A DNA stretch of 64,000 bases from a virus (taxonomy: Duplodnaviria; Caudoviricetes). The DNA lies in IMG/VR virus record IMGVR_UViG_2593339199_000003, positions 1 to 64,000 of that record, one strand, 5' to 3'. Positions within the stretch are counted from its first letter, which is position 1, and the number at the start of each line of letters is the position of its first letter. The notes under the pieces are model-generated. The model was not told the DNA's origin and did no database searches. It saw only the letters and a list, made by a program, of their open reading frames with translations. A program made the position numbers and the translations under genes. This document shows positions 11,436 through 24,845 of this stretch, piece by piece.

Positions 11436-11885
11436 TTAAGTCCTATTGTAGATTTTCATATTTGCCGCATTTAGGTCGATTGTGGCCCGGATTAAGTTCT
11501 CCTCCCGCAGCAGCTCGACATTCTGGTCGATGATGCGGGAGTCCTCATAGCTGGTGCCATTGATCGTCAACGTAAACGTCGCGCCCCAGGTCAGCATGTA
11601 AAAAGAATCGATCTCGCGATTGCTTTTCAGCAGTAGTTCGATGGTGTACTCCACGCCGGTCGGGCGGCTGCGCGTGAATCCAGCTGGCTCTACCCCGTCC
11701 ATGGCAGTCGGCTCATACTGCCGATGCAAAGTGGTCTTGATGACACGGCCAATCAGCTGACGCGCATGCGAAAGCGTAGCGATCGTGACCCAGTAATAGC
11801 CTTCAGGCGGCTCATCTTCCCAATGTGTAAAGACATGCCGCTTCTCGACGTCAAGCTCCAAGATATACTGCTGCAGCAGTTCCAT
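11436..11885 (-). CDS. Hypothetical protein with MEL-tag (MELLQQYI)
   Basis: TAATG coupling to upstream gene; 149 aa. Confidence 0.75.
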   Translation of the reverse strand: MELLQQYILELDVEKRHVFTHWEDEPPEGYYWVTIATLSHARQLIGRVIKTTLHRQYEPTAMDGVEPAGFTRSRPTGVEYTIELLLKSNREIDSFYMLTWGATFTLTINGTSYEDSRIIDQNVELLREENLIRATIDLNAANMKIYNRT

Positions 11886-12235
11886 TATTCATCACCCCGA
11901 TCTTCCTTACATACGAATTGAAAAAAGAGTTTCTCCGCCGGTGGCATGGCGTTTACAATTTCATGACTCACAATTTTGTAGGCCCTTACATTCTGGTATC
12001 CATCCTCAGTCAGCAGCATGATCAGCCGCTCCCGCCATTTCGGGGCGTCCCGCTCCACGGACTCCCATACCCACTTTTCGATTTGGATCACGCCCTGCTG
12101 ATAGCCCATGTATGTAGGATGCGGCTTGAGGATCAGGGTTTCGCAGTTCATTTCTTTGACCTGCTTATTGGTGTCGGCAATCCAAAGGCGGAATCGAGTG
12201 ATCTGATTGGTTAAATAAGCATCCATCAGTTCCAA
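11885..12235 (-). CDS. Hypothetical protein with MEL-tag (TTG start, MELMDAYL)
   Basis: GGAGAGG 9 nt before TTG 12235. Confidence 0.7.
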   Translation of the reverse strand: MELMDAYLTNQITRFRLWIADTNKQVKEMNCETLILKPHPTYMGYQQGVIQIEKWVWESVERDAPKWRERLIMLLTEDGYQNVRAYKIVSHEIVNAMPPAEKLFFQFVCKEDRGDE

Positions 12236-12283
12236 GTCCATCTTCCTCTCCGTAAATATCCCCAAAAAAGGGGCGGCATGTTT

Positions 12284-12619
12284 TTAGCAAACAAGCCGCA
12301 CATCATGGCGCGAGATCTCGATGAGGTCCGAGATGAACGCACAGTATTTGCCCGAGTCCGTTGCGTCCTGCATTGCCCGTCCGAAGGCATCCGGATCGGT
12401 GCTCACGCTCGCATTGGCCAGCGCCTGGTTCATGACGCTAGTTTCCCGGTTCAATTGCTCGATCAACCACCAGGTTGGCGACGTCATCCAGCTATAATCT
12501 TGCGCGAGCGGCCCCTCACCAAGCCGTTCGATGAACCAGTGCAGCTCCGGGCGTGGACTGCGCTGTTCGCATTGTTTCAACGTTTCGGCAAGCTCGTAAT
12601 TGACCAGCAGGATACTCAT
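12284..12619 (-). CDS. Hypothetical protein (MSILLVNY, weak tag variant)
   Basis: GAGGGA RBS; 111 aa. Confidence 0.6.
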   Translation of the reverse strand: MSILLVNYELAETLKQCEQRSPRPELHWFIERLGEGPLAQDYSWMTSPTWWLIEQLNRETSVMNQALANASVSTDPDAFGRAMQDATDSGKYCAFISDLIEISRHDVRLVC

Positions 12620-12645
12620 GGTTCATCCCTCATTCTCATAAAATA

Positions 12646-12659
12646 AGATCATATGTTCG
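12646..12659. promoter_or_regulatory. Possible LexA/DinR box
   Basis: CGAACATATGATCT on minus strand, one core mismatch, in AT-rich promoter region. Confidence 0.45.
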
Positions 12660-12802
12660 TATTTTGTTCTCTTATTATCGCTCATGCTGGCCAAAAAGTG
12701 AAGTGTTGACATTTTCTATTCTTCTATCATCGGCAAAAAAGCCGCGATATTAAAGGAGTACTCCCAAGGAGGAAGCCGAAAATGCCCCACGCTTCCTAAG
12801 CA

Positions 12803-15800
12803 TTAAGCGAAATCCACTTCCCAGTTTTCTATGGCCTGCGTGACGTAGGTGATCTTGTCAGCCAGCAGGTCCATCTTGGATTTGTTGCCGCGGATCTGAA
12901 CCTTACGACCCACCTGCAGGTCGGCGTAATGGTCTTTCCACAGCTTATTGAAGACCATGACGTTCACTTCATCCTCGGCCGTCTCGATCATGATGCGGCA
13001 ATGTTCGGTGCCCGTCTTCTTCGCCTTGAACGGCTCGACCTTCTGTACGATACCGGTCATCGAGACATCCTCTTTGCCGTCCGGGATCATCTCCCAGCGC
13101 GACTTCACGGACACACTCGCACCCAGGTATTCTTTCTCGAAGGCGAGAATGTCCCGCTTCATCGTCTTGGCTGGGATGTCCTCATACGCCTCGCCGCGGC
13201 TGCCGATGTACGTCCGCCAGTGCAGGTAGCGGTTTGGGTTCATCGTGCTGTCGAAGCAGCCTGACTTAATTAGCGCCTCAACCTTCGTCTTATTAACCTT
13301 CGAGCGGTTCACTTGGAACAACATGTGCTCCAGATTGTCATACGGCCGCTTGTTGGTGATCTCAATCACAGAGTCGCCGCTGATGCCGGCGATACTACCG
13401 AGGCCGTAGCGGATCAGACCCTTCCCTTTCATGTTCGGATCCGTATTCGGAATCGGTGTCCACGAAGCGTTGGACTGGTTGATGTCGGGCGGCAGGATAC
13501 GGATGCCCATTTCCTCGCATTCATGCATGTAGCCTACCGACTTTGGATTCCCGTTCTTGTCCTTCTTGCCCTCCGAAATGGTCAGCAGAGCGGCCATAAA
13601 CTCGGTTGGGTAATAACACTTAAGAAATGCGGTTTGGACGGAGAGTACGGCGTAGCAGGCGCTGTGAGCGTAGTTGAAGCAGTATTCACCGAACTTGATC
13701 CATTGCTCCTTGATGCGGAGCAGCGTTGCTTCGTCATAGCCGCGGCTAAGTGCTCCTGGAATGTTATCTGGCGCTTCTTCTGCATAGTCGTAGTCCACCC
13801 AAACAGTCGGCTTGCCTTCGGCATCGACCGGGATTGTTTCCTGCGTTGGATATTGCGCGATGCGCTGCTGCTGCATCTCTTTGTACGCCGCGGATCCGTA
13901 AATCATTAGGTCAATCCAGCGGTTCATGATGTCGTGCTTCTTTTTCGAGATCCCTTTACGCAACATGTCGGATTGGCCAGTCGTGAAGCCGCCCATAATA
14001 ACGGACGCTTTCATGATCTGCTCTTGATAGACCCAAACGCCATAGGTACCTTCGAGCACTTCCTGTAGCTGCGGGAATGGATACGTGACCCGCTCCTGTC
14101 CCCACTTACGGCGAACATAGGATGGGATCAGATCCATCGGGCCCGGCCGGCCGAGTGCCACGATAACCGAAATATCTTGCACGCTGTTCGGTTTCATGTC
14201 CGAAATGATTTTTCGATATAGGTCGGATTCGACCTGGAAGATACCGGAGAGATTCAAGGTATTGTAGATCTCGCTGTAAATCCTCGGATCGTTCAAGTCA
14301 ATTGCGTCTATATCGAAATTGATGAGCCCTGCATTTTCCATCGTCAGTTTAATAAGGTCAAGTGTGTCAAGCTTCAGGATGTCGAACTTGACCAGGAACT
14401 TCTCGATCCATTCCATGTCGTACATGGTGGTCGTGAGCCCCTCTTTATCCTTTCGGAGCGGGACTGTCTTGGTCAGCGGGATTGGCGAGAGCACGATGCC
14501 GCCGGCATGAACACCTTCCTGGTTGACATGACCTTCGAGCTTCAGCGCAGTTTCCCACCATTGCGGCCACATATTCGCATAGTGCTGAACGGCCTGCTCA
14601 GCAGCATGGGCCTCCGAAAGCTCGATGCCGGGCTTCTCTGGGATCGACTTTGCAAATACGTCCTGATCGGTCAGGCTGTAGCCCAGCGTCTTGCCGACCT
14701 TCCGGATGACCGCGCGTGCGGCCAACGTGCCATAGGTGCCAATCTGCGCGACGCGATCGGCGCCGTACTTCTGTTTCATGTACTCTTGGACGGCCTTTGC
14801 GCCCTCATAGGAGAAGTCCACGTCGATGTCCGGATAGCCGGCGCGCTCCGGATTCAGGAAGCGCTCGAACATGAGGTTCCATTCAATCGGATCGAGCGTT
14901 GTGATCTTGATCAGGTACGCCACAAGGCTGCCGGCTGCAGAGCCGCGACCCGGGCCGACGCGGTAGCCGTTGCGCTTCGCCCACTGGATGTAATCCGATA
15001 CGATCAGGAAGTAATCGGCGAAGCCCTGCTTGCAGATGATCTCCAGCTCATACTTCAGCTGCCGGGCGTATTGCTCTAGGTTGATTGGCTTCTTAAGCGC
15101 ATAGGTGAACAGCTCGTTCCACGCTTGCTTCTCCAGCTGCAGCTCTGCAGTGTCGCCCTCCTCGATCGTATACCGCGGGAATACTTGCGTCTTTGGCAGG
15201 TCCACATTGACGAGCTCGGCGATTTTGTGCGTGTTGGCGATCGCTTCGTCGTCGTTGACGATCTCCCGGATCTCCTGTTCGTCCTTCATCCAGAACTCGT
15301 GGGCATAGATGAGTCGGTCCTCGTCAGACACGCATTTGCCGATCGAAGCAGCCACGAGAACATCATGCGTCACGTTGTCTTCCTTGTAGGCGTAATGCAC
15401 GTCCGTCGTGACGATCTTCGGGGTGTTCGTCTCCGCAGCGAGCTGGTCAATCAGCGCGTTTAATCTAAGCTGGTCGGGGATTCGGGTTGCTTGCTTTTCG
15501 AGGTAAAACGAGTGAAACGTTTCTTTGCATTCTTGAATGAATGCTCGAGCATCCTCCAGACGCCCAGCAAGAGCCAGCCGACTGAACCAAGAACCCAGGC
15601 AAGCAGAAGTAGCAATGAGATCAGCACCCAAATTACGTTCACGAATAAAAGCAAGATCAGTGCGAGGATCGGAATAGAAACCGTTAAGATGAGCGTCTGA
15701 AACAATTTCATAGAGATCTTCCAGCCCCTTATTATTTATTGCGATCAATACCAGATGGTAGTTGTCGTACTGCAGGTAATCGTAGATATCCTCACGGAAT

Positions 15801-16279
15801 TGATCCAGCGTGTTGAGCTTCTCTTCCGGAGCGGCGTTTTCTGCCATGCTGAACAGGTCGAGTTGGCCATCACCAACCGGAGCAGCCATTTCAAGACCGT
15901 CTTCTTTCATGAGCAGTTCCGCCAGCAACTGACGGGCCATGACCTCGAAGTCCTGCGGGTTGCGTTCAATATGCTTGATGAATTGCTTGAGCGGCTTATC
16001 CTTGACGGCATACTTGTCCATCAAGGCGGTGCGCTTCTCTTTCATGAAATCGCCTTTCAGCAGGCGATCCTTTGTCATATAAGCCTCGCAGCCGGGAATG
16101 GGCTTGATGCCCTCTTTCTTGCAGGCCTTTATAAAACCAGGAATGGCACCGCACACACCGTGGTCGGTGATAGCTAGTGCCATGCTCCCGAGTTCTTTGG
16201 CCCGCTTCGCAAGCGTAGTGACTTGAGACAAGCCATCCAGCTGCGAAAATTCGCTATGCACATGAAGATGCACACACAT
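12803..16279 (-). CDS. dnaE: DNA polymerase III alpha subunit (DnaE type)
   Basis: PHP HLHVHSEFSQLDG and AITDHG; GPGRGSAAGSL; PDIDVDF; KFDIL; FNYAHSACY; C-terminal OB fold. AAAGGAG RBS before 16279. Confidence 0.97.
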   Translation of the reverse strand: MCVHLHVHSEFSQLDGLSQVTTLAKRAKELGSMALAITDHGVCGAIPGFIKACKKEGIKPIPGCEAYMTKDRLLKGDFMKEKRTALMDKYAVKDKPLKQFIKHIERNPQDFEVMARQLLAELLMKEDGLEMAAPVGDGQLDLFSMAENAAPEEKLNTLDQFREDIYDYLQYDNYHLVLIAINNKGLEDLYEIVSDAHLNGFYSDPRTDLAFIRERNLGADLIATSACLGSWFSRLALAGRLEDARAFIQECKETFHSFYLEKQATRIPDQLRLNALIDQLAAETNTPKIVTTDVHYAYKEDNVTHDVLVAASIGKCVSDEDRLIYAHEFWMKDEQEIREIVNDDEAIANTHKIAELVNVDLPKTQVFPRYTIEEGDTAELQLEKQAWNELFTYALKKPINLEQYARQLKYELEIICKQGFADYFLIVSDYIQWAKRNGYRVGPGRGSAAGSLVAYLIKITTLDPIEWNLMFERFLNPERAGYPDIDVDFSYEGAKAVQEYMKQKYGADRVAQIGTYGTLAARAVIRKVGKTLGYSLTDQDVFAKSIPEKPGIELSEAHAAEQAVQHYANMWPQWWETALKLEGHVNQEGVHAGGIVLSPIPLTKTVPLRKDKEGLTTTMYDMEWIEKFLVKFDILKLDTLDLIKLTMENAGLINFDIDAIDLNDPRIYSEIYNTLNLSGIFQVESDLYRKIISDMKPNSVQDISVIVALGRPGPMDLIPSYVRRKWGQERVTYPFPQLQEVLEGTYGVWVYQEQIMKASVIMGGFTTGQSDMLRKGISKKKHDIMNRWIDLMIYGSAAYKEMQQQRIAQYPTQETIPVDAEGKPTVWVDYDYAEEAPDNIPGALSRGYDEATLLRIKEQWIKFGEYCFNYAHSACYAVLSVQTAFLKCYYPTEFMAALLTISEGKKDKNGNPKSVGYMHECEEMGIRILPPDINQSNASWTPIPNTDPNMKGKGLIRYGLGSIAGISGDSVIEITNKRPYDNLEHMLFQVNRSKVNKTKVEALIKSGCFDSTMNPNRYLHWRTYIGSRGEAYEDIPAKTMKRDILAFEKEYLGASVSVKSRWEMIPDGKEDVSMTGIVQKVEPFKAKKTGTEHCRIMIETAEDEVNVMVFNKLWKDHYADLQVGRKVQIRGNKSKMDLLADKITYVTQAIENWEVDFA
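15460..15711 (-). CDS. Overprinted 83-aa membrane protein inside dnaE (same strand, +1 frame)
   Basis: About 50 hydrophobic residues plus K/R tail; dnaE third positions switch to T over this span; AAGGGG/GGAAG upstream. Confidence 0.7.
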   Translation of the reverse strand: MKLFQTLILTVSIPILALILLLFVNVIWVLISLLLLLAWVLGSVGWLLLGVWRMLEHSFKNAKKRFTRFTSKSKQPESPTSLD

Positions 16280-16292
16280 GAGCCCGTCTCCT

Positions 16293-16610
16293 TTATTGCT
16301 CCGAGCTGCCCTCACCGATCAGCTCAAGAGTTTTGATTTCACCGATCGACGCAGAATCGTACTTCGCTCTTGCCCGGTCCAGGCGGCTGATAATCGTGCT
16401 GGTTTGCACGGCCGAGCCGATGATGATCGTTCCCTTTTGGTCGGAAGACACGATCACAGAGCGCGTTTTCTTGCCTTGCGTCAGGTCAATGTAGCGGCCT
16501 TCCTCTTTGGCCTTTTGAGCCATCCGACGAATCGGAGAAGAATCCGGCCGGCTAATTGTCACGATTTTGTTTGCTTCAACGTAGTTAGAAAATCCAACGT
16601 CAACGTACAT
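16293..16610 (-). CDS. remA: RemA-like (DUF370) extracellular matrix/biofilm regulator
   Basis: VGFSNYVEANKIVTISRPDSSPIRR..IDLTQGKKTRSVIV..IIGSAVQTSTIISRL. Confidence 0.88.
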   Translation of the reverse strand: MYVDVGFSNYVEANKIVTISRPDSSPIRRMAQKAKEEGRYIDLTQGKKTRSVIVSSDQKGTIIIGSAVQTSTIISRLDRARAKYDSASIGEIKTLELIGEGSSEQ

Positions 16611-17499
16611 CTAAATCCATCCACCTTTGCATGTTGTGATTTGTTGTATTGCGTTCTGTCACTTCGCGCACCAGATCTCCGTTGGTGTCGCCCTTAATCA
16701 CATCAGGGATGGGAAGGCCATTTTGAATCGCGTGCAGAATGGTCAGCACGTCCTGGTAGATCGGACTGCCGAATTGGAAGGGGATCGGATACCGAACTTG
16801 TCCATCATTTTTACGGGAGTCACCGTGGCAGTAGAAGTTGTAGTTGCACTGCGCGCATTTGTAAAAGCTTGGCGTGTGCCCCTTCGGGATCTCCGGCAGC
16901 CGGCGTTCTTTCGCCAGTTGGATCAGCGTCCGAGCTTTTTCCATGAGCTGCTCGCCGAACCGCGGATCGTAGTCCAGATGATGTTCCCAAACTTCCTGCG
17001 TGTCTTTGTTCTCCACGAAGATGATGCCTTTTCGGACGTCCAGGTTCAGCATGGTCTGTGCGAGATACAGATAGAACGTCAGCTGCGCTTTATGCTCGGC
17101 TTTCGGCGAGTTGTTCTTTTGCATCCACTCGAAGCTTTTGCTGAAGGCGCTCTTAAGCTCGATCAGATAATACTCGCCAAACGGATTCATGAAGCTTTGG
17201 ATCTTGACCAACGCGTCCGTGTGGCCGCTGATGTCTTCGTTCTCCAGCTTCATCTCCGCTTGAACCAAGATTCCCATATCCTTGAACAGCTTCTCATACC
17301 GATGGTGCATGCTGTGACCATTCTCAAAGATGCGAACGAGCTGAGATTCATGTGGCTTATAAGGAACCATGAGCATGTCGAACACGATCCTGCGTTGGCA
17401 CATACCGATCGTTGAAGGATGAAACTTCCGCATCGGGCGGGTATCATGTTTGAGCTTTTCGCTATAATAGCTGTTGATCATGGCTTCTAATAATTCCAA
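16600..17499 (-). CDS. Cas4-like PD-(D/E)XK exonuclease with Fe-S cysteines
   Basis: PSTIGMCQR, GHSMH, GHTD, IELKS, QLTFY, CAQCNYNFYC; GGAGG 8 nt before TTG 17499. Confidence 0.85.
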   Translation of the reverse strand: MELLEAMINSYYSEKLKHDTRPMRKFHPSTIGMCQRRIVFDMLMVPYKPHESQLVRIFENGHSMHHRYEKLFKDMGILVQAEMKLENEDISGHTDALVKIQSFMNPFGEYYLIELKSAFSKSFEWMQKNNSPKAEHKAQLTFYLYLAQTMLNLDVRKGIIFVENKDTQEVWEHHLDYDPRFGEQLMEKARTLIQLAKERRLPEIPKGHTPSFYKCAQCNYNFYCHGDSRKNDGQVRYPIPFQFGSPIYQDVLTILHAIQNGLPIPDVIKGDTNGDLVREVTERNTTNHNMQRWMDLDVR

Positions 17500-17512
17500 C
17501 GGTTGAACCTCC

Positions 17513-17536
17513 AATAATGTAATGCATTACATTATT
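17513..17536. promoter_or_regulatory. Palindromic operator at a sigma-A promoter for cas4-like/remA/dnaE
   Basis: Perfect 24-bp AATAATGTAATGCATTACATTATT directly after minus-strand TTGATT-17-TATAAT. Confidence 0.85.
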
Positions 17537-17583
17537 TATTATAACCTTGTAAAACCTAGAAATCAAGAGAAAACGGGAGATAA

Positions 17584-17805
17584 CTAAAGTTTATACTCCC
17601 TTTTAACCCGCTTCAAAGTTGTTTCATCGCACAGTTCCATGGAGTCGTACCAGTCAAACGGAAAAACCACGTTGCCGACTTCGACCCAGTAATCATTTTG
17701 TACAACCTTATCCAGCAAAACCGGATTCACGTCAGTGATATGTACCTCCGGTCCAGGTGTCGTGCATACAACTGCGATGATTTCAGGATTCGTTATCGTA
17801 TCCAT
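17584..17805 (-). CDS. Hypothetical protein
   Basis: AGGGAG RBS; MDTITNPEII.. Confidence 0.55.
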   Translation of the reverse strand: MDTITNPEIIAVVCTTPGPEVHITDVNPVLLDKVVQNDYWVEVGNVVFPFDWYDSMELCDETTLKRVKREYKL

Positions 17806-18596
17806 TTGATTGCTCCCTTCGCCCATAGCTCCTTGTAATAGTCCACGAGTCTTTTCTTGATGCGATATACGGACCGATGATGGAGGCCTGTTAGCTGGGC
17901 TATCTCTTTGTCGGATTTTTGATCGAGAAATGCTTTTACCAAGATCAACCGCTCCGTATAATTCAAGTCCTGGAACAGCTCGTTACAATGTATGCCATTC
18001 ATCCAGAGGATGTTGTGCTCGAGATCCGTGTCTTCGTCCATGGTGATGGCGAACGGATTGTCTTCATACTTCAGCGCGCCGGCCTCGTCGATCGGGGCGA
18101 TGGTATCGGCAGCGAAGATATCGACATAGCCGGACTTCTTGCTGCTTGCATCGAAGATCTTGCTGTTGATCAGATCCTTCAGGTAATACCGGTAGCTGTG
18201 GTACAGATATCGCTTAAAGCTCTTGCCCTGATCTGTATAATTCTTGGCGCAGGTCAGGAAGATGATCGCAAGCTCTCGGTAGATTTCATCGAAGGGATAA
18301 TGCTTTTCCCACGGCTTGTACGTGTCGTAATCCCGGAACGTGCGGCGCAGATAGCCGACGACATAATGGGCGGCCCCGTGAGCGGCCTTTGTTTGGTACT
18401 TACCCCGAATCAGCGCCTTGCGCGTCTCCGAGTCCTTGATGAAGCAGGAGATGAACTTCCTCGTATCGTAATTTTCGAAATCGATCAGACCCTGGGTGAT
18501 CATCTTGTAATACTTCATGATGAAGGCGTGATACTCGGTCACCAGCTGCTCGCTCTCACCGGTTTCCTGATATCGTTTGATGAGTTCCTCGCTCAT
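17793..18596 (-). CDS. Phage sigma-70 family sigma factor
   Basis: Region 2-like DEIYRELAIIFLTCAKNY..SFKRYL; region 4 HTH LNYTERLIL..KSDKEIAQLTGLHHRSVYRIKKR. Confidence 0.8.
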   Translation of the reverse strand: MSEELIKRYQETGESEQLVTEYHAFIMKYYKMITQGLIDFENYDTRKFISCFIKDSETRKALIRGKYQTKAAHGAAHYVVGYLRRTFRDYDTYKPWEKHYPFDEIYRELAIIFLTCAKNYTDQGKSFKRYLYHSYRYYLKDLINSKIFDASSKKSGYVDIFAADTIAPIDEAGALKYEDNPFAITMDEDTDLEHNILWMNGIHCNELFQDLNYTERLILVKAFLDQKSDKEIAQLTGLHHRSVYRIKKRLVDYYKELWAKGAIKWIR

Positions 18597-19180: not shown

Positions 19181-19648
19181 CTATCGAACGACCGTCATGC
19201 CAAGCACGGAGACCATGGTGAACGTGATGATCACGGCCTCACCGATGAACCGGCCTTCGCCGTCATAACGCTTCTCGTAGTTGATGTCGCGGCCGGAGTA
19301 GTGATCCTTGTTCAGCTTCAATTCCTCGGCGGCATATTTAATCATGGTAGCCTCGATAATCGCGTCCCGCGTGATGTTGATCTGGTCCTTCATGCGGAGC
19401 TCGTGCCATTCCTTCTCCTCGGTTTCAACCAGGTTGTTAATGACCTCGCAGTATTCCTCGAACGTCAGGCGAACCTCGCTGCCGAATTGATCGAACTTGT
19501 TCGGCTCCAGAATCAGATCGATGGTCGTGATGCCGCCATCGGTACGCTGATTCAGAACAAGCAGCTTATTGTTGCTTTCCTGGTCGTTCAGCTGGCTTTC
19601 CACCATGTAATTCTTCCTTGGACCGATCCGTTTGTTGTTCTCGGACAT
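19181..19648 (-). CDS. Hypothetical protein
   Basis: Abuts rusA; start uncertain (19648 or internal MVESQ). Confidence 0.6.
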   Translation of the reverse strand: MSENNKRIGPRKNYMVESQLNDQESNNKLLVLNQRTDGGITTIDLILEPNKFDQFGSEVRLTFEEYCEVINNLVETEEKEWHELRMKDQINITRDAIIEATMIKYAAEELKLNKDHYSGRDINYEKRYDGEGRFIGEAVIITFTMVSVLGMTVVR

Positions 19649-19730
19649 TGCGTGCATCCCCTTTCTGTGCAAGTTGTTCTCGATTGATTCCTTTTCCCAT
19701 GTCTTCGACGATATCAAATAGTTTCCCCAT
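19566..19730 (-). CDS. Small hypothetical protein (54 aa), not in the ORF track
   Basis: AGGTGA RBS then ATG 19730; MGKLFDIVEDMGKG..; first ORF after the operator. Confidence 0.4.
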   Translation of the reverse strand: MGKLFDIVEDMGKGINREQLAQKGDARNVREQQTDRSKEELHGGKPAERPGKQQ

Positions 19731-19745
19731 CTTTATCACCTACCC

Positions 19746-19768
19746 AATAATGTAATGCATTACTTTAT
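19746..19768. promoter_or_regulatory. Palindromic operator, rusA/sigma operon
   Basis: AATAATGTAATGCATTACTTTAT downstream of minus-strand TGnTATAAT. Confidence 0.8.
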
Positions 19769-19826
19769 GGAATCATTATATCATAATCTACCAATAAAAA
19801 AAGAGGGATTTCTCCCTCTAGCTCGA

Positions 19827-20750
19827 TTATGCTAGTAATTTCTCCAGATTTATCACACCGTCGCCGAAGTAAGCGTCTTTGCCTGGGGCTCCAAGATCGA
19901 TGCTGGAAGCAAGCAATTTGGTATGCAGCGCGTCTGTAGCCGGGATCACTTCGCCGCGTCTCAAAAGATACGAGAGATAAAGTGCAATGCTGCCAGCCAT
20001 AAGTGGTGTCGCCATGCTTGTTCCCGATAAGCGGGCATAGCCGCCATCTTTATAGCAAGAGAGTATATCAACGCCTGGAGCCATGATTTCATTTTTGAGG
20101 CCATAATTCGAGAAGCTCGCCCTTTCGTGATTACGCCCCATCGCCGATACTGCGATCACTTCGTCATACATCGCCGGCCAATCCACGTAATGGTTTTCGT
20201 TGCCGGTTGCGGCGACCATGATGATGCCGGCTGCTGCGGCTGCTTTGATCGCATCATGCAGCTCCTGCGGAGGTTCCATGGCGCAGCCAAGGCTCATGGA
20301 AATGAGATGGACTTTTTTGTCGATCGCCCAACGGATCCCCTTGATAATCGAGTCAAAGCCGCCACTTCCGTTGTCGCTGAGCACCTTGGCGCAGTACAGT
20401 TCTGTCTGTGGCGCAACGCCGATCATACCCTGCCCGTTGTCTTCGGCGCCGATGATGCCGGCGCAGTGCGAGCCGTGCCCCTGGCGGTCGCGGCCGCCGT
20501 AGGATGAGCCCGTGAAATCGATAACAGCCTTGATGTTCTCCTTCAAGTCCGGATGATGGAAGTCCACGCCGGTATCGAGGATTGCAACCCGGACATCCAG
20601 TCCGGTAGACTTAGGCCACACGTTCGGTGCGCCAATGTCGTTCAGCCCCCAGTCGATCAGATCGTCGCCTGCGCTTGACGGATGAACACTTACCACTTCG
20701 TGATTCGCCAGCTTGAATGCTTGTTTCATAATGTCCTCCTGTGTCTTCAC
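19827..20750 (-). CDS. Subtilisin-family (S8) serine protease without signal peptide
   Basis: Triad motifs ILDTG, HGSHCAG, SGTSMATP. Confidence 0.95.
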   Translation of the reverse strand: MKTQEDIMKQAFKLANHEVVSVHPSSAGDDLIDWGLNDIGAPNVWPKSTGLDVRVAILDTGVDFHHPDLKENIKAVIDFTGSSYGGRDRQGHGSHCAGIIGAEDNGQGMIGVAPQTELYCAKVLSDNGSGGFDSIIKGIRWAIDKKVHLISMSLGCAMEPPQELHDAIKAAAAAGIIMVAATGNENHYVDWPAMYDEVIAVSAMGRNHERASFSNYGLKNEIMAPGVDILSCYKDGGYARLSGTSMATPLMAGSIALYLSYLLRRGEVIPATDALHTKLLASSIDLGAPGKDAYFGDGVINLEKLLA

Positions 20751-20770
20751 CCTGTATCCTTATATGAAAT

Positions 20771-20784
20771 TGTAACACATTACA
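20771..20784. promoter_or_regulatory. Operator variant upstream of the S8 protease
   Basis: TGTAACACATTACA (2 mismatches) overlapping a TGnTACAAT -10. Confidence 0.55.
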
Positions 20785-20798
20785 TTCCATTATTCAGC

Positions 20799-21206
20799 TT
20801 AGACTTTACCCAGAAGATGCAGGAAAAAGGAAGTGAAAGCTCCACCGATTACCAGGATCGACAAGGAGGTCATGACGACTGTAAAGATGCTTGGCCCTTC
20901 GAAGCGGCCGATAGGACGGATCGGAAGTCGCCGCACAAAATCCTCAAGATAGAGTGTATTTGCGCCCTCCATCTCCCTGAGCCTGGTGTATTCATCTGCC
21001 CGCTCCAAGGCGGCACGTCTGACTTCCCTGCAGAACTCATCGTAAGTGTATGCGCGTTTGTGCCACTCTTTCTCCAGCTTCGCACGGCAGTTCTTGATGA
21101 TGTTCTCGGCGAATGCTTCCATCGTGGCACGCTCGAGATCTTCATGTTCATCAGGTTCAGCTATGTTCCCGTCCGTCTGATGAAGATACGCTTCGATCAG
21201 CTCCAT
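20799..21206 (-). CDS. MEL-tag protein (MELIEAYL) with C-terminal TM helix
   Basis: C-terminal IFTVVMTSLSILVIGGAFTSFFL. Confidence 0.75.
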   Translation of the reverse strand: MELIEAYLHQTDGNIAEPDEHEDLERATMEAFAENIIKNCRAKLEKEWHKRAYTYDEFCREVRRAALERADEYTRLREMEGANTLYLEDFVRRLPIRPIGRFEGPSIFTVVMTSLSILVIGGAFTSFFLHLLGKV

Positions 21207-21609
21207 AATAATGCACCCACTCCATGCCGACTTTGAAATGCTTATTCCATTTATTCGGATAGGCGTTCAAGAAGACGACCCGCTTCACGCCTGCCTGGTT
21301 CAGTCGCTTCGTGCAGTTCTCACATGGCTCATGCGTTACGTAGGCGGTTGCGCCGATCAGGTCCCTCCGGTTCGTATGCAGTATAGCGTTCTCCTCAGCA
21401 TGCAGCGTCCGGATGCAGCGCCCCTCGTCGTTTAGCAGATGGCCCACGTCGTCGCAATGATCATGGCCATGGATGCTGCCGTTGTAGCCGGCTGCGATCA
21501 GGCGGTTATTCTTCACGATGATACAGCCGACCTGCAGTCGATTACAGGTGCCTCGATCGGCGACTTTCTTCGCAATATCAATCCAATAGGAATCCCAGTC
21601 TTTGCGCAT
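21157..21609 (-). CDS. dCMP deaminase (ComEB-like)
   Basis: WDSYW, RGTCNRLQVG, GYNG, HAEENA, PCENC. Confidence 0.92.
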   Translation of the reverse strand: MRKDWDSYWIDIAKKVADRGTCNRLQVGCIIVKNNRLIAAGYNGSIHGHDHCDDVGHLLNDEGRCIRTLHAEENAILHTNRRDLIGATAYVTHEPCENCTKRLNQAGVKRVVFLNAYPNKWNKHFKVGMEWVHYYGADRSVSSSDGREHS

Positions 21610-21646
21610 GTTATTGACCTCCCAAACTCATTCTCATCGTGGTCTA

Positions 21647-22009
21647 CTAAAACAGTGTCAGCTGCTCGGATTCAGGTGCCGGCTCGGCGTAGTACGCCTG
21701 CTCTCCGTCATCCAATGCGACGCGGTAGATCCCACAGGTCCGGCCGGTGACACCGCACTTGCGCTTGCCGCACACTTCGACGACGCCCGCTAGGTGAAGC
21801 TCCGTAAGCCGCGGGTGAACGAAGTTACGTTCGGGCTTCGGGAAATACTCCTTCTCATGCATGATCAGCGCCAGCTCGCCAGCTGTTGCGCCTGTGTCGC
21901 CAAGCAACTCCAGTTCATGGTAGACGGCGGCTTGACGCTGCCCCAGCGTCTCAAGAATTACCTTGTAGCTTTCTTGTCTTGTCGATTGTGTAATGCTCAT
22001 CATTGGCAC
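21647..22009 (-). CDS. Winged-HTH protein ending in a clamp-binding-like motif (QLTLF)
   Basis: GATAGELA..VHPRLTEL..GKRKCGVTGR. Confidence 0.7.
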   Translation of the reverse strand: MPMMSITQSTRQESYKVILETLGQRQAAVYHELELLGDTGATAGELALIMHEKEYFPKPERNFVHPRLTELHLAGVVEVCGKRKCGVTGRTCGIYRVALDDGEQAYYAEPAPESEQLTLF

Positions 22010-22130
22010 GCTCCTCTAAATATCGTTCTGATCGGTTTTTGTATTGATTAATTTTCAAGCGGTTCAGGTATGTCTGATAAGCTGGGGAATCCCGGTAATG
22101 CTCTTTCATGTATTCAACAATCAGATCCAT
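21951..22130 (-). CDS. Small MEL-tag variant protein (MDLIVEYM, 59 aa)
   Basis: TGATG coupling and GGAG RBS at 22130. Confidence 0.6.
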   Translation of the reverse strand: MDLIVEYMKEHYRDSPAYQTYLNRLKINQYKNRSERYLEERANDEHYTIDKTRKLQGNS

Positions 22131-22864
22131 CAGCGCCACTCCATGCAGAAGCTCTTGGCCGGACAGCTGTCGCAATGATAGCTCTCCCGTGGATAGAACC
22201 ATTCCTCGTCGATCGTTTTCTTCATCATGCGCACCGATTTATACAGGCGCTGGTAATCCTTCTGCCGGCGCTCCGTGTAATATGGCACGCCCGTCTTCAA
22301 ATGCTGCAGACAGATGGAGTCTGGCTCCTTCTTAAACATGGAGTGGAAACCAATCGCTTGGAGCGTAAGGTCCATATCCGTCCGCTGCCAGAAGTCGTCC
22401 GGGCGCTGCGGGCTCGTCTTGAAGTTGGCGATCTCCAGCCCACGCGTCGTCTCCCGGATGACCGGGATATTTCCGCGGACAAAGAAGTCATCGCCGATTG
22501 GCACGCGGAAGTCTACGTTGACCGCAATCACCTTGTCGGGATTAAACTTCTGCTGCCGGTGAAAAATAGCCAGCATCTCGATGGCGGCAAGTTCCTTCTT
22601 GCGCTGTGCCTGCTTATCATCAAATTGGATGTCGTAGATCTTGTTCTTGTCGTACCAGATGCTGCCGAATTTCGCTTTCAGGTCTTCCATCGAAACCAAC
22701 TTGCCTTGATGCAGGTTCAGATAAAAATAGCTGATCGTTGTCTTGATCGCTTCGCGGAGCCCGTCATTCTGCGAGAGCTTAACCGGCATCTTATCGATCT
22801 CGATGAACTTGTACCGAAGCGGGCAGGCTTTAAAGTCATACAGCTGCTCAACGGTAATTTCCAT
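22130..22864 (-). CDS. PD-(D/E)XK nuclease-like protein (RecB/AddB type)
   Basis: FKACPLRY, ANFKTS, LQAIGF, CDSCPAKSFC; the acidic catalytic residues look degenerate. Confidence 0.75.
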   Translation of the reverse strand: MEITVEQLYDFKACPLRYKFIEIDKMPVKLSQNDGLREAIKTTISYFYLNLHQGKLVSMEDLKAKFGSIWYDKNKIYDIQFDDKQAQRKKELAAIEMLAIFHRQQKFNPDKVIAVNVDFRVPIGDDFFVRGNIPVIRETTRGLEIANFKTSPQRPDDFWQRTDMDLTLQAIGFHSMFKKEPDSICLQHLKTGVPYYTERRQKDYQRLYKSVRMMKKTIDEEWFYPRESYHCDSCPAKSFCMEWR

Positions 22865-23174
22865 CGTCATCGCCTCCAAAGATTTCATGCACCGGCACGA
22901 AGATGCCGCGCGCATTCATGATGCTCCACATAATGCTGACCATACTGTCGTCTCCGTAACAGACGACATCGAAGAAATGTAGGGACGGCAGGTACGTGTG
23001 GAAGTGTACGTCAAGCAGATCCTTTAGCTTCTTCGCCATCTCGAGCCGCGCGTGAAGCGTATTCTTGGCATAACGAAACTCCTCGGACTGTACGGCCAGA
23101 AAGTTGTCGATCATGGCTTTGAAGTCAGCTCCGCTTTGGATCTGGCTTCGGGTGTAGGCGTTGATGAGCTCCAT
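22848..23174 (-). CDS. MEL-tag protein (MELINAYT)
   Basis: TAATG coupling; 108 aa. Confidence 0.75.
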   Translation of the reverse strand: MELINAYTRSQIQSGADFKAMIDNFLAVQSEEFRYAKNTLHARLEMAKKLKDLLDVHFHTYLPSLHFFDVVCYGDDSMVSIMWSIMNARGIFVPVHEIFGGDDDGNYR

Positions 23175-23626
23175 TATCTCCGTCCCCTTCTGCCCATCCG
23201 GGATTCATTGTGACCGCGCATCTCCGGCGTTAAGCGAACGTTCTGCACCCGGCCGACCTCCTGACCGCCCAAGAAAACCCTGGCCTCGTTCTGCGGCGCC
23301 GCTTCGTCCACTTCGATCGGGCAGGAATACTGAATCTGAATAACGTCTCCCTTACTCGGTGTTTCCCGCAACACGACCGACCTGTCATGCACATCGTAGT
23401 CGGCCCCCGCTCGCTGCATGACACCGTTAACGTAGACCAGTTCGGTGTGCGGCGCCGGCTTATGTTCCAACGTCATCAGATTCGACCAGCCGTCCCCTCG
23501 CATCGATTGACCGGTGCGCCGGTGCTGCTCATGAATCGGCGTTTTTGAAACGCGTTCTTGAATCTTGGCGATCTCTGCAAAGAAACGCAAGTGATGTCCA
23601 TCAATATAGGACTGCAATAATTCCAT
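23174..23626 (-). CDS. MEL-tag protein (MELLQSYI) with virion-type small beta domain
   Basis: VYVNGVMQRAGADYDV..VVLRETPSKGDVIQIQY resembles repeats in the 2433-aa protein. Confidence 0.75.
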   Translation of the reverse strand: MELLQSYIDGHHLRFFAEIAKIQERVSKTPIHEQHRRTGQSMRGDGWSNLMTLEHKPAPHTELVYVNGVMQRAGADYDVHDRSVVLRETPSKGDVIQIQYSCPIEVDEAAPQNEARVFLGGQEVGRVQNVRLTPEMRGHNESRMGRRGRR

Positions 23627-23778
23627 TAGGCTTGCTCCTTCTCTAGCAGTTTTATGGCTTCTTCTAATTCACGGATCCGTGCATTCAGATTGATCTTGGT
23701 GCGTGTCCTGGTTTTCTTCAGGATCAGAAGCGACCCAAGCGCTCGTTTCAGGTGCTGGATAGAATAGGCGTAGCTCAT
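23626..23778 (-). CDS. Small basic coiled-coil protein (50 aa), not in the ORF track
   Basis: AAGGAG RBS; MSYAYSIQHLKRAL..LEKEQA*; TAATG overlap with next gene. Confidence 0.65.
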   Translation of the reverse strand: MSYAYSIQHLKRALGSLLILKKTRTRTKINLNARIRELEEAIKLLEKEQA

Positions 23779-23792
23779 TTGGTCGCTCCTTC

Positions 23793-24011
23793 CTAAGCAA
23801 ATAGAGGGATTCCCTGTTGCAGCACTCGTTGTCTGATCTCGTCTCGTTGTATGTAGGCTAAAAGCAAATTGTTGAGCCCATCAATTTGAGGCTGATCTGG
23901 TGCTGACCAAGAGACTTTAACCTCTTGGCCAGACTTTAACCTATAAGTGAATGGCTTATAGGTCCGATCAGGTATCTTGTGGGCGTTAAGGTATCCCGCA
24001 AGCAGCTCCAT
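23793..24011 (-). CDS. MEL-tag protein (MELLAGYL)
   Basis: GGAG RBS; 72 aa. Confidence 0.7.
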   Translation of the reverse strand: MELLAGYLNAHKIPDRTYKPFTYRLKSGQEVKVSWSAPDQPQIDGLNNLLLAYIQRDEIRQRVLQQGIPLFA

Positions 24012-24014
24012 CGT

Positions 24015-24293
24015 CTAGTCTCCGATATGCTGGACGCCGATGCGCGGCGCGCCGGTTGGCCCTTGGTTCGGTCCGACCTTTTCAAGCAGCGCCATCGACA
24101 TTCGCTGTAGCTCTTCAGCCTGATTCAGCAGGCGCAGGATCTCATAGTTGTTTCGCTTGACCTGTGCAGCGGGCTCAGAATCGTCACGCACGATCTTCTT
24201 CGTCTTGCCCAGGATCTCGAATTGGAGCTGCGCGAGAACCTCTTCTAGCTTTTCGCCTTGCGGATTATCTGCGCCCAGTAGGATGTTTTGCAT
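24015..24293 (-). CDS. Hypothetical protein
   Basis: GGGGAG RBS; MQNILLGADNPQGEKLE.. Confidence 0.65.
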   Translation of the reverse strand: MQNILLGADNPQGEKLEEVLAQLQFEILGKTKKIVRDDSEPAAQVKRNNYEILRLLNQAEELQRMSMALLEKVGPNQGPTGAPRIGVQHIGD

Positions 24294-24396
24294 GTTCACT
24301 TCTCCCCGGTAATTTAATTGGTTCAGCCTCGATCGCCGGCGTGCTCGTATAGAGCACACCGACCACGAGCAAAGCAGCTGCCAGCAAATGCTTCAT
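24265..24396 (-). CDS. 43-aa pre-peptide with Sec-type signal sequence, not in the ORF track
   Basis: GGGGG RBS 9 nt upstream; MKHLLAAALLVVGVLYTSTPAIEA|EPIKLPGRSEHAKHPTGRR. Confidence 0.55.
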   Translation of the reverse strand: MKHLLAAALLVVGVLYTSTPAIEAEPIKLPGRSEHAKHPTGRR

Positions 24397-24416
24397 CTCT
24401 CTCATCCCCCTGATGA

Positions 24417-24845
24417 TTACATAGATTCAATTGCGGCTTTCAGCTTCGGATATGGATCTTCCCAGCCCGCCGGCTTTTGGATCTTGCCGTCGCCCTCGCG
24501 GTAGTGCGGCTTGCCGTCCGGCCAGAGCTTGGACATATTGGCATGCTGCACGATGTCCATCAGCGCCTGCGGCTTCACGCCGAGCTCGACCAGCGTGCCG
24601 AGCGCGAAGTACATCAGATCAATCATGGCGTCTGCTTGATCGACGACGTTATCCGAATCCAGGAACTCTTGGATTTCTTCTTGGCACCAGTGCATGCGGT
24701 TCTCCGCGCGCGCTTGTTCCATCATCGTAGGCCGGCTCGCCACTGGATGGTTGAATGCCTGGTGGAAGGCCTTCACTTGATTGAAGGCCAGGTCCAAACC
24801 ACGCTCGTCCATGCTTGCGGTATAAGCTTGAATCAGTTCGCTCAT
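24417..24845 (-). CDS. MazG-like / PRA-PH NTP pyrophosphohydrolase with MEL-tag extension
   Basis: VKAFHQAF, QEEIQEF, DQADAMIDLMYF, ANMSK, DGKIQKP; begins MSELIQAYTAS. Confidence 0.85.
   Translation of the reverse strand: MSELIQAYTASMDERGLDLAFNQVKAFHQAFNHPVASRPTMMEQARAENRMHWCQEEIQEFLDSDNVVDQADAMIDLMYFALGTLVELGVKPQALMDIVQHANMSKLWPDGKPHYREGDGKIQKPAGWEDPYPKLKAAIESM

What the first reader, a model, noticed from the sequence alone, without database searches (positions are those of the whole stretch)
11436..24845. Shared N-terminal 'MEL..Y' tag on eight unrelated proteins: candidate cargo-addressing system
Seen: MELLQQYI (11885), MELMDAYL (TTG 12235), MELIEAYL (21206), MDLIVEYM (22130), MELINAYT (23174), MELLQSYI (23626), MELLAGYL (24011) and MSELIQAYT (24845); weaker MSILLVNYE (12619) and MELLEAMI (17499). 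The bodies are unrelated (membrane-anchored, beta-domain, MazG-like, unknown). Codons vary synonymously (GAA/GAG, CTG/CTC/TTA, TAT/TAC), so conservation is at peptide level. On the MazG-like enzyme the tag appears to be an 11-aa extension ahead of a second Met. Known precedents: the T4 capsid-targeting sequence on internal proteins and N-terminal loading leaders of contractile injection system cargo. Inference: a short amphipathic helix that directs proteins into the virion for co-injection, or to a common adaptor or protease. I do not recognise this motif from any described system.
Basis: partly seen in the sequence, partly recalled or inferred. Interest (0 to 1): 0.9.

Follow-up and report, generated by a model that had tools for sequence, protein, structure and literature searches.

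The report
Shared N-terminal peptide tag in jumbo phages
About one in twelve proteins of a group of very large Bacillales phages begins with the same eight-residue peptide (Met-Glu-Leu-x-x-x-Tyr-Leu) although the proteins are otherwise unrelated, which points to an undescribed address label read by one common partner.

Summary
In the window, 8 minus-strand genes between 11.4 and 24.9 kb start with M(S)-[ED]-L-x-x-x-Y (7 of about 96 genes without the Ser variant; binomial P = 7e-12). Codons vary synonymously, so selection acts on the peptide. The bodies are unrelated.

The window is half of a roughly 213-kb jumbo phage/phage-plasmid, distantly related to Bacillus phage 0305phi8-36. Relatives in Paenibacillus, Bacillus and Alicyclobacillus carry 10-24 such genes each. 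I collected 90 tags from six genomes. The consensus is M-E-L-[VIML]-polar-[A]-Y-[L].

- In fast-evolving orthologues the tag is the only invariant part.
- Residue 4 differs by genome (Met, Val/Ala or Ile/Leu; 0 of 20,000 permutations reach the observed heterogeneity), which implies one co-evolving reader.
- Three tagless relatives (0305phi8-36, pBtic235, Moorella phage) show chance-level counts.
- Tagged proteins are small (median 110 aa), non-structural, and include MazG-like and dUTPase enzymes.

The reader of the tag is unresolved. The candidates are capsid loading as with the T4 capsid targeting sequence, the conserved intracellular-subtilisin-like S8 protease, the phage beta-clamp, and a clade-specific Cdc48-like AAA ATPase. 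I found no description of the motif in print.

The parts
11436..11885 (-). Tagged gene 'a' (149 aa, MELLQQYI; tag codons 11862-11885). Beta-rich orphan, the last gene before the amidase.
   Evidence: Orthologues in 7 relatives keep only M1, L3 and Y7 invariant. The AF2 model has helix 2-16, low pLDDT for residues 12-21, and a confident beta body.
11885..12235 (-). Tagged gene 'b' (116 aa, TTG start, MELMDAYL; tag 12212-12235).
   Evidence: In the 8-sequence alignment the invariant columns are M1, Y7, W18, I19 and W67. The AF2 model has pLDDT 86 with the tag as helix 3-10. There is no PDB fold match at E <= 0.001.
20799..21206 (-). Tagged gene 'c' (135 aa, MELIEAYL; tag 21183-21206). Hydrophobic C-terminal stretch; overlaps the end of the dCMP deaminase gene by 50 nt.
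   Evidence: The orthologue in P. rhizovicinus (38% identity in the body) starts MELVAEYI.
21951..22130 (-). Tagged gene 'd' (59 aa, MDLIVEYM; tag 22107-22130). Its start overlaps the stop of the upstream PD-(D/E)XK gene by 1 nt.
22848..23174 (-). Tagged gene 'e' (108 aa, MELINAYT; tag 23151-23174).
   Evidence: No Pfam or PHROG family.
23174..23626 (-). Tagged gene 'f' (150 aa, MELLQSYI; tag 23603-23626). Its beta domain resembles virion or tail-fibre domains weakly.
   Evidence: phrog_2710, E 8e-5. The 38%-identical orthologue P0002 starts MELLQMYI.
23793..24011 (-). Tagged gene 'g' (72 aa, MELLAGYL; tag 23988-24011). A stop lies one codon upstream.
24417..24845 (-). MazG-like NTP pyrophosphohydrolase (142 aa) with the tag as an N-terminal extension (MSELIQAYT; 24819-24845).
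   Evidence: PF01503 covers residues 24-103, E 7e-17. Homologues start near residue 17-21. Orthologues start MELMQPY, MSELVGAY, MNLTETY and MELMKQY.
19827..20729 (-). Intracellular-subtilisin-like S8 protease: no signal peptide, no pro-domain, Asp-His-Ser triad conserved. Candidate reader of the tag.
   Evidence: Savinase E 1e-51; ISP entries 2x8j and 7xr8. Present in all tag-bearing genomes examined, but also in the tagless pBtic235 and Moorella phage.
17793..18596 (-). Sigma-like/HTH factor starting MSEELIKRY. Tag-like but not consistently so in relatives.
   Evidence: Relatives start MSDELIKAY, MKKQHDPLHSY or MALVSDNF.
16600..17499 (-). Cas4-like PD-(D/E)XK nuclease, TTG start, MELLEAMI. 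A look-alike, not a tag.
   Evidence: Alignment A3.

Best explanation
The MEL..Y start is a lineage-specific N-terminal recognition peptide. Its consensus is M1-E2-L3-[V/I/M/L]4-polar5-[A]6-Y7-[L]8. It has been placed on about 5-10% of the proteins of a clade of roughly 200-230-kb Bacillales jumbo phages and phage-plasmids. The carriers are small, non-structural accessory proteins of the replication and early-gene arms. They include MazG-like and dUTPase enzymes and many orphans.

Shown:
- The tag is selected at the peptide level.
- It outlasts all other sequence in orthologues.
- It is absent from the nearest tagless relatives.
- Its fourth residue shifts in concert across unrelated genes of one genome.

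Inferred: M1, L3, residue 4, Y7 and L8 form one hydrophobic face of a short terminal helix. That face docks into a groove of a single reader that co-evolves with it, so all tagged proteins share one destination or fate.

My first choice for that destination, at about 30% of the total, is loading into the prohead for co-injection with the DNA, as the T4 capsid targeting sequence does for internal proteins. This step is analogy only. The confidence given is for the general claim (a trans-read recognition peptide), not for the destination.
For: Enrichment:
- G000 has 7 tagged starts in about 96 genes (P = 7e-12). W01 has 19 in 300 (1e-28). W02 has 23 in 310 (6e-36). The internal-Met rate is 8 in 8,548.
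- Counts of the DNA pattern ATGGARYTN(N9)TAY, with the reversed-pattern control in brackets: 14 (0), 18 (1), 7 (0), 12 (0), 15 (0) and 12 (0) in six clade genomes.
- The same pattern gives 0 (1), 0 (0) and 1 (0) in Moorella phage, 0305phi8-36 and pBtic235.
- Two Bacillales genomes give 30 (15) per 4.6 Mb and 36 (11) per 2.8 Mb.

Peptide level: synonymous codons are used within each genome.

Unrelated bodies.

Purifying selection: in 'a' orthologues (16-30% identity) the only invariant columns are M1, L3 and Y7. For 'b'.

Logo of 90 tags: E81/D9; L90; position 4 V28 I25 M16 L8 A6; position 6 A31; Y90; position 8 L42 I12 M8 F5.

Concerted change: position 4 is M in 15 of 19 tags in W01; V12 A6 I5 in W02; I8 V4 L3 in G005. 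G = 123.6, reached by 0 of 20,000 permutations. Positions 5, 8 and 9 are not heterogeneous.

Structure: the tag is predicted helical with lower confidence than the body. In 'a' it is followed by a stretch with pLDDT below 50.

Carriers: they are small (median 110 aa; 81 of 90 are <= 165 aa) and lie only in non-structural arms. One has a weak Tad2-like hit, E 6e-4, below the curated cut-off.
Against: - No binding partner was identified and no complex could be predicted.
- For capsid loading: nothing beyond residue 8 is conserved that could serve as a maturation cleavage site.
- The tagged genes sit with replication and early genes rather than head genes.
- 0305phi8-36 shares a syntenic virion module but has no tags.
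- Nucleotide-metabolism enzymes are odd cargo.
- Gly or Pro occurs at position 6 in 7 of 90 tags, about the background rate, so a strict helix is not required.
- The concerted shift to Met is seen in one sub-clade (W01, G006, partly L116). It therefore counts as few evolutionary events, though many genes changed.
- Gene calls are my own crude ones, and starts are inferred rather than measured.
Confidence: 0.6

Rival explanations
1. The tag is a substrate leader for the phage's intracellular-subtilisin-like S8 protease. Tyr7 sits in S1, residue 4 in S4 and the small residue 6 in S2. Cleavage after Tyr7 would remove the leader, or start degradation, at a set time in infection.
For: - An S8 protease with an intact catalytic triad, no signal peptide and no pro-domain lies in the same gene block in every tag-bearing genome examined (13 of 13 loci).
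- In the window it is the gene next to tagged gene 'c'.
- The spacing of aromatic Y7, aliphatic residue 4 and Ala/Pro/Gly-tolerant residue 6 matches the P1/P4/P2 preferences of subtilisins (recalled knowledge, e.g. AAPF substrates). The logo is and the Gly/Pro counts.
- Intracellular subtilisins bind an N-terminal [LVI]-[IFLV]-P-[YFH] peptide across the active site (PMC6220982, passages read).
Against: - The S8 protease is also present in the tagless pBtic235 (51% identity) and Moorella phage (46%). It therefore has a tag-independent role.
- S4-pocket positions (subtilisin 104, 107, 126, 135) do not track tag residue 4 across 13 genomes.
- The invariance of L3 and E2 (P5, P6) is not explained.
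- The LIPY motif is one residue shorter than the tag.
Confidence: 0.18
2. The tag is an N-terminal clamp-interacting peptide. It would tether accessory proteins to the phage-encoded beta sliding clamp, working like a PIP box, whose hydrophobic residues have the same spacing (4, 7, 8).
For: - Clade genomes encode a three-domain beta-clamp (PF00712/02767/02768; B. subtilis DnaN 4tr6, E 1e-42). It was found in 6 of 6 clade genomes searched.
- The clamp is only 29-33% identical between genomes whose DnaE is about 57-63% identical. Fast evolution fits co-evolution with ligands.
- All 8 window tags lie in the replication and nucleotide module.
- Clamps are classic hubs for short terminal hydrophobic/aromatic motifs, and N-terminal PIP boxes exist in eukaryotic ligase I, UNG2 and MSH6 (recalled).
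- W01, the Met-type genome, alone has Phe at the position equivalent to E. coli L177 (n = 1).
Against: - 0305phi8-36 has a beta-clamp (PF02767, E 3e-15) but no tags.
- The tag does not fit the bacterial motif QL[SD]LF (recalled).
- The phage DnaE shows no tag-like motif apart from a universally conserved DnaE segment.
- Half of the tags in complete genomes sit in clusters of small orphan genes away from the replication genes.
Confidence: 0.13
3. The tag is a degron or remodelling signal. It would be read by an AAA+ machine, either the clade-specific Cdc48/PAN-like AAA ATPase or a host protease such as Lon or Clp. Accessory proteins would then be turned over together, for example to silence them in the plasmid state.
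For: - A 550-aa classic-clade AAA protein (PF00004, E 4e-30; VAT 5g4g, E 3e-49) is present in 8 of 8 complete clade genomes tested. Its orthologue is absent from pBtic235, 0305phi8-36 and Moorella phage. Those three carry only weaker or different AAA hits.
- AAA+ unfoldases commonly read short terminal tags (established knowledge).
Against: - 32 other core genes show the same clade-specific pattern in my crude screen (33 of 93 core genes). That screen also wrongly scored the clamp as absent from 0305phi8-36.
- The pore-loop-1 region reads SKVGQSE and lacks the aromatic residue of threading AAA proteins (alignment; the comparison motifs are recalled).
- There is no evidence of instability.
Confidence: 0.12
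4. The motif acts in cis. It would be an N-terminal sequence that favours translation start or early elongation, keeps Met1, or caps and stabilises small proteins, with no dedicated reader.
For: - Glu/Asp/Asn at position 2 blocks Met removal and favours helix capping (established knowledge).
- 80 of 90 tags follow an SD-like sequence, and many starts are coupled to the upstream stop.
- The carriers are small proteins, for which N-terminal effects weigh more.
Against: - Synonymous codon variation rules out an mRNA-level signal.
- The invariance of L3 and Y7 and the genome-wide switch of residue 4 are hard to derive from general translation or folding effects.
- Two Bacillales genomes show no comparable enrichment.
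- Close tagless relatives express similar genes without it.
Confidence: 0.1
5. There is no present function. The motif would be a relic of gene birth or of recombination at shared gene starts, or a hidden paralogous family.
For: A few tagged neighbours are paralogues: W01 140452/140821, W02 105960/107488 and W02 108587/109554.
Against: - The tag is conserved while bodies diverge to 16-30% identity.
- Codons differ.
- Most bodies are unrelated.
- The concerted change of residue 4 needs selection.
Confidence: 0.02

Closest known systems
Bacteriophage T4 capsid targeting sequence (CTS) on internal proteins IPI-III and Alt (features recalled; only paper listings seen)
   Same: A peptide of about 8-10 residues at the extreme N-terminus, shared by otherwise unrelated small phage proteins. 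It has hydrophobic/aromatic residues in helical spacing. Some carriers are counter-defence proteins.
   Different: - A different sequence.
- About 20 carriers per genome instead of a handful.
- No conserved protease site after the tag.
- Carriers are encoded with replication and early genes.
- Presence in virions is untested.
- The residue-4 preference is genome-specific.
LIPY/F pro-peptide of intracellular subtilisin proteases (PMC6220982, passages read)
   Same: An N-terminal peptide with two adjacent aliphatic residues followed by an aromatic one, which binds a subtilisin active-site cleft. The phage encodes a protease of this kind.
   Different: The LIPY motif acts in cis on the protease itself, has Pro before the aromatic residue, and is one residue shorter (L-I-P-Y against L-x-x-x-Y). 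In the tags, Pro is at position 6 in only 4 of 90.
PIP box and bacterial clamp-binding motif (consensus sequences recalled)
   Same: A short terminal motif on many unrelated partners of one hub. Hydrophobic residues at 4, 7 and 8 match the PIP spacing. A phage beta-clamp is present.
   Different: Position 1 is Met rather than Gln, and position 8 is mostly Leu rather than aromatic. The clamp is the bacterial beta type, whose known motif QL[SD]LF does not fit. 0305phi8-36 has a clamp but no tags.
Encapsulation peptides of bacterial microcompartment enzymes (recalled)
   Same: N-terminal amphipathic helices placed on unrelated enzymes to bring them to one protein shell.
   Different: They are about 18 residues long with no fixed sequence, and are followed by linkers. 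No microcompartment genes were seen here.
Bacillus phage 0305phi8-36 and jumbo prophage pBtic235 (PMC2147016 and PMC9700832, passages read)
   Same: The same broad phage lineage. There is a syntenic virion module of 20+ shared genes, together with primase, helicase and sigma-like genes. pBtic235 also has the S8 protease.
   Different: Both lack the tag (1 and 3 chance-level matches). The tag-bearing clade is a separate branch found as plasmids or viral contigs of Paenibacillus, Bacillus and Alicyclobacillus.

Membership tests
T4-type capsid targeting sequence | Short peptide at the extreme N-terminus, shared by unrelated phage proteins | tested here: met
T4-type capsid targeting sequence | Conserved prohead-protease cleavage site directly after the peptide | tested here: not met
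   Relative entropy falls to 0.3-0.5 bits from position 9 onward, and no conserved residue follows.
T4-type capsid targeting sequence | Carriers are found inside virions; packaging depends on the scaffold core | not testable with these tools
   No proteomics is available for any clade member. Supplements are closed.
Substrate or pro-peptide of an intracellular subtilisin (LIPY/F type) | Motif [LVI]-[IFLV]-P-[YFH] | tested here: not met
   The tags are L-[VIML]-x-x-Y, one residue longer. Pro precedes Tyr in 4 of 90.
Substrate or pro-peptide of an intracellular subtilisin (LIPY/F type) | A cognate subtilisin co-occurs with the motif, and its specificity pockets co-vary with it | tested here: inconclusive
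   S8 is present in all clade genomes, but also in 2 of 3 tagless relatives. There is no co-variation at pocket positions.
PIP box / beta-clamp binding motif | Qxx[LIM]xx[FY][FY], or QL[SD]LF | tested here: not met
   Position 4 is aliphatic in 83 of 90 and position 7 is Tyr in 90 of 90. However, position 1 is Met and position 8 is aromatic in only 7 of 90. There is no QLxLF.
PIP box / beta-clamp binding motif | Physical binding in the clamp's peptide cleft | not testable with these tools
MazG/PRA-PH NTP pyrophosphohydrolase (gene 24417-24845) | PF01503 domain above the curated cut-off | tested here: met
   62.1 bits against a cut-off of 21.3, residues 24-103. The tag lies outside the domain.
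0305phi8-36-like jumbo phages | Syntenic virion and replication genes | tested here: met
   31 ORFs match at E < 1e-5, colinear over about 70 kb.

The most novel reading that the evidence does not exclude
A proteome-wide 'postcode': one dedicated phage receptor, co-evolving with the tag, gathers about twenty different small accessory and counter-defence proteins through an eight-residue N-terminal label. In the boldest form it loads them into the capsid, so that a whole arsenal is injected with the DNA. The label would then be a portable tag for packaging foreign proteins into Gram-positive jumbo phages.
Probability: 0.3. Interest if true: 0.9.

Novelty: new variant of a known kind. Interest (0 to 1): 0.8.

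Why it matters
Short shared address peptides are rare in phages, and the textbook case (the T4 CTS) covers only a few proteins. Here one label marks 5-10% of the genes of a widespread but unstudied clade of jumbo phage-plasmids of soil, food and clinical Bacillales.

The label does three things:
- It groups some 20 orphan proteins per genome into one functional set.
- It gives a simple handle to find their common partner: peptide pull-down, tag swaps between Met-type and Val-type phages, and virion proteomics.
- If it is a loading or tethering signal, it offers an engineering tag.

It also shows that scans of N-terminal motifs can reveal organisation in 'hypothetical' phage proteomes.

Tried and rejected
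**Searches for relatives**
- Near-DNA search against phages: no match.
- Three single-protein scans of viral contigs found nothing useful.
- The only genome-contig scan was wasted. The DnaE alignment gave generic patterns, and 80 cellular dnaE loci came back.
- The metagenome scan added only one new short contig.

**Candidate readers**
- S8-pocket co-variation was negative.
- A GNAT acetyltransferase sits inside tagged clusters, but only in 2 of 9 sequences searched (W02 and G003), so I dropped it.
- Searches for a canonical prohead protease gave no hits for PF04586. PF03420 also gave none, but its control rang nowhere, so that result is uninformative.
- Head-region proteins gave only PHROG 'major head protein' hits.
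- The Foldseek PDB search of the 'b' model gave nothing at E <= 0.001.
- The phyletic screen for a receptor gave 33 candidates, too many to decide between. It also mis-scored the clamp.

**Motif membership**
- The 12619 ORF has no homologues in six relatives.
- The Cas4-like and sigma-like N-termini are not consistent tags.

**Literature**
Nine text searches turned up no description of this motif. Word search cannot query a sequence motif, and supplements were closed, so a mention in a table could have been missed.

- The look-up of encoding contigs was not called, because it is closed.
- One protein-homology search, two Atlas calls and the sequencing-run tools were left unused.
This is the corrected report.

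Full report
**What the window is**

The window is the first 64 kb of a 105,081-bp virus record, which IMG/VR classes as a provirus about 53% complete. Its proteins also occur on a 213,532-bp contig in the large protein collection. Nearly all genes are on the minus strand.

The finding's region (11.4-24.9 kb) is a replication and nucleotide-metabolism block. In order it holds:
- NrdE/F and a MazG-like enzyme
- small orphan genes
- a PD-(D/E)XK nuclease, a winged-helix protein and a dCMP deaminase
- an S8 protease, RusA and a sigma-like factor
- a second Cas4-like nuclease and a RemA-like protein
- DnaE, two orphan genes and an amidase

The virion half is colinear with Bacillus phage 0305phi8-36. 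Thirty-one ORFs match at E < 1e-5, so this is a distant member of that jumbo-phage lineage. The closest DnaE in the phage collection is only 38% identical (Moorella phage MTATph1).

**Checking the observation**

All eight strong N-termini are present as described. A six-frame scan of the 105 kb for [ED]L[LIMV]..Y gave 20 matches. Seven directly follow a start codon at an ORF start, all between 11.4 and 24.9 kb. The MazG-like protein has the motif after Met-Ser.

An in-frame stop lies 1-41 codons upstream of each, and SD-like sequences are present. Codons vary synonymously.

Among 8,548 internal Met residues of six related genomes, only 8 are followed by [ED]L...Y. Seven of about 96 gene starts in this record are (P = 7e-12).

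The bodies share no similarity. Pfam and PHROGs recognise only the MazG-like domain (residues 24-103) and the sigma/HTH protein.

MazG homologues typically begin at residue 17-21 of this protein, so the tag is an extension there.

**Relatives**

DnaE homologues at 57-70% identity sit on contigs of 197-229 kb from Paenibacillus, Alicyclobacillus, Priestia and Bacillus, and some are annotated as plasmids. I read two plasmids in full: P. urinalis (W01) and P. rhizovicinus (W02). I also read three complete viral contigs (G003-G005), a B. thuringiensis plasmid (W04), and ten 8-21-kb loci.

The gene order of the block is conserved and the tag is everywhere, at annotated gene starts.

Counts of the DNA pattern ATGGARYTN(N9)TAY, with a reversed-pattern control in brackets:

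| Record | Count (control) |
|---|---|
| Six clade genomes | 14 (0), 18 (1), 7 (0), 12 (0), 15 (0), 12 (0) |
| Two Bacillus plasmids | 4 (1), 11 (2) |
| Moorella phage | 0 (1) |
| 0305phi8-36 | 0 (0) |
| pBtic235 | 1 (0) |
| Bacillales genome, 4.6 Mb | 30 (15) |
| Bacillales genome, 2.8 Mb | 36 (11) |

With a peptide definition (^MS?[ED]L...Y, ORF >= 45 aa, <= 70 upstream codons) I collected 90 tags: 8, 19, 24, 13, 11 and 15 in six genomes. W04 has 10. The tagless relatives have 3, 1 and 1.

**Anatomy of the tag**

| Position | Residues among 90 tags |
|---|---|
| 2 | E 81, D 9 (Asn and Met-for-Leu variants exist outside the strict set) |
| 3 | L 90 |
| 4 | V 28, I 25, M 16, L 8, A 6 |
| 5 | polar; Gly+Pro 1 of 90 |
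| 6 | A 31, E 15; Gly+Pro 7 of 90 |
| 7 | Y 90 |
| 8 | L 42, I 12, M 8, F 5 |
| 9 onward | little information |

Residues 3, 4, 7 and 8 form one face of a helix. AlphaFold2 models of two tagged families show this:
- In 'b' the tag is helix 3-10 ahead of a confident beta body (pLDDT 86).
- In 'a' it is helix 2-16 followed by a stretch with pLDDT below 50 (pLDDT 79).
- In both, the first ten residues average pLDDT 65.

Carriers are small (median 110 aa, maximum 265) and lie only in the non-structural arms. About half are in the replication block. The rest are in runs of small orphan genes, for example eleven in 4 kb of W02.

Recognisable carriers are MazG-like enzymes, a dUTPase in B. thuringiensis relatives, a weak Tad2-like hit and a weak terminase-ATPase-like hit.

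**Evidence for selection and for one common reader**

Orthologues keep the tag while the rest of the sequence decays:
- The 'a' family (16-30% identity) has only M1, L3 and Y7 invariant.
- The 'b' family keeps M1, Y7 and three other residues.
- A 38%-identical orthologue of 'f' keeps MELLQ.YID.

Residue 4 depends on the genome, not on the protein family. It is Met in 15 of 19 W01 tags, Val/Ala/Ile in W02 and Ile/Val/Leu in G005. The heterogeneity statistic is G = 123.6, reached by 0 of 20,000 permutations. Positions 5, 8 and 9 are not heterogeneous.

Base composition does not explain this. W01 is 42% GC and the 37%-GC G004 prefers Ile/Val. Many unrelated genes changing the same residue in one lineage is what a shared binding site predicts.

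One caution applies. The Met shift belongs to one sub-clade (W01, G006, partly L116), so the number of independent events is small.

**Who reads it?**

I could not settle this.

*(a) S8 protease.*
- It is a true subtilisin without signal peptide or pro-domain, like intracellular subtilisins. It is in the same block in all 13 clade loci.
- The Tyr7 / aliphatic-4 / small-6 spacing fits subtilisin P1/P4/P2 preferences (recalled).
- Intracellular subtilisins bind an N-terminal LIPY/F peptide in the cleft.
- Against it: the protease also occurs in the tagless pBtic235 and Moorella phage, and the pocket residues do not follow residue 4.

*(b) Beta-clamp.*
- It is a bona fide three-domain clamp. It is present in 6 of 6 clade genomes searched and evolves fast.
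- The tag has PIP-box-like spacing.
- Against it: 0305phi8-36 has a clamp without tags, and the bacterial clamp-binding consensus does not fit.

*(c) A 550-aa Cdc48/PAN-like AAA protein.*
- It is present in 8 of 8 complete clade genomes, and its orthologue is absent from the three tagless relatives.
- Against it: 32 other core genes share that pattern, and its pore loop lacks the usual aromatic residue.

*(d) Capsid loading, as with the T4 CTS.* This rests on analogy only.

*(e) A cis effect on translation or stability.* This is hard to square with the invariant L3/Y7 and the concerted residue-4 change.

**Verdict**

The feature is real, strongly non-random, selected at the peptide level and characteristic of a whole phage clade. 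The most economical reading is an N-terminal recognition peptide for a single co-evolving partner. The destination is open, and I rank capsid loading first by a small margin.

I found no description of the motif in nine literature searches. Text search is a poor tool for motifs, and supplements were closed.

Noticed in passing
window 1-64000 and the whole record G000: The record is about half of a roughly 213-kb element. Relatives are 197-229-kb 'plasmids' or viral contigs of Paenibacillus, Bacillus, Priestia and Alicyclobacillus, with ParM, terminase and huge virion proteins. This makes a clade of jumbo phage-plasmids distantly related to 0305phi8-36.
   Followed up: partly
window 19827-20729 (-) with 17793-18596 (-): An intracellular-subtilisin-like S8 protease lies next to a sigma-like factor. 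The pairing is conserved as far out as Moorella phage MTATph1 and pBtic235. A role for such a protease in a phage replication block is not established, as far as I recall (not searched).
   Followed up: partly
window 16293-16610 (-): A RemA/DUF370-like gene lies directly upstream of the phage DnaE and is conserved in all relatives read.
   Followed up: no
window 23174-23626 (-) and P0002: Protein 'f' and its 38%-identical orthologue share the tag and also a basic C-terminal tail (NESRMGRRGR). That tail overlaps the ribosome-binding site and start of the next tagged gene.
   Followed up: no
W01 88180-90946 (L009 8180-10946); orthologues in all complete clade genomes: A clade-specific block contains a Cdc48/PAN-like single-domain AAA ATPase whose pore loop lacks the aromatic residue. 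It is followed by a 120-aa orphan, a DUF1257 protein and a 68-aa protein. It is preceded by an NrdG-like radical-SAM activase.
   Followed up: partly
W02 109156-109554 and G003 4686-5060: A small GNAT acetyltransferase is embedded in runs of tagged small genes in two genomes only. Position 2 of the tag (E, D, N) matches the substrate class of eukaryotic NatB (recalled).
   Followed up: partly
W01 111312-112652 and orthologues: The phage beta-clamp has N- and C-terminal extensions of about 25 and 45 residues. It is only about 30% identical between genomes whose DnaE is about 60% identical.
   Followed up: partly
window 21157-21609 and 20799-21206 (-): The dCMP deaminase gene and tagged gene 'c' overlap by 50 nt in different frames.
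   Followed up: no
W02 1248-1268 and 213019-213039: An identical tag-encoding 21-mer occurs near both ends of the linear P. rhizovicinus record. This suggests a long terminal repeat that carries a short tagged ORF.
   Followed up: no
G000 99766-101063 (L168 3767-5064): Two adjacent paralogous head-region proteins (166 and 242 aa) both match the N-terminal third of PHROG 9206, 'major head protein'. No S78-type prohead protease was detected in five genomes.
   Followed up: partly
window 22130-22867 (-) and relatives: The first PD-(D/E)XK nuclease starts MEITVEQLYDFK in every relative. This is a conserved N-terminus that resembles the tag but is distinct from it.
   Followed up: partly
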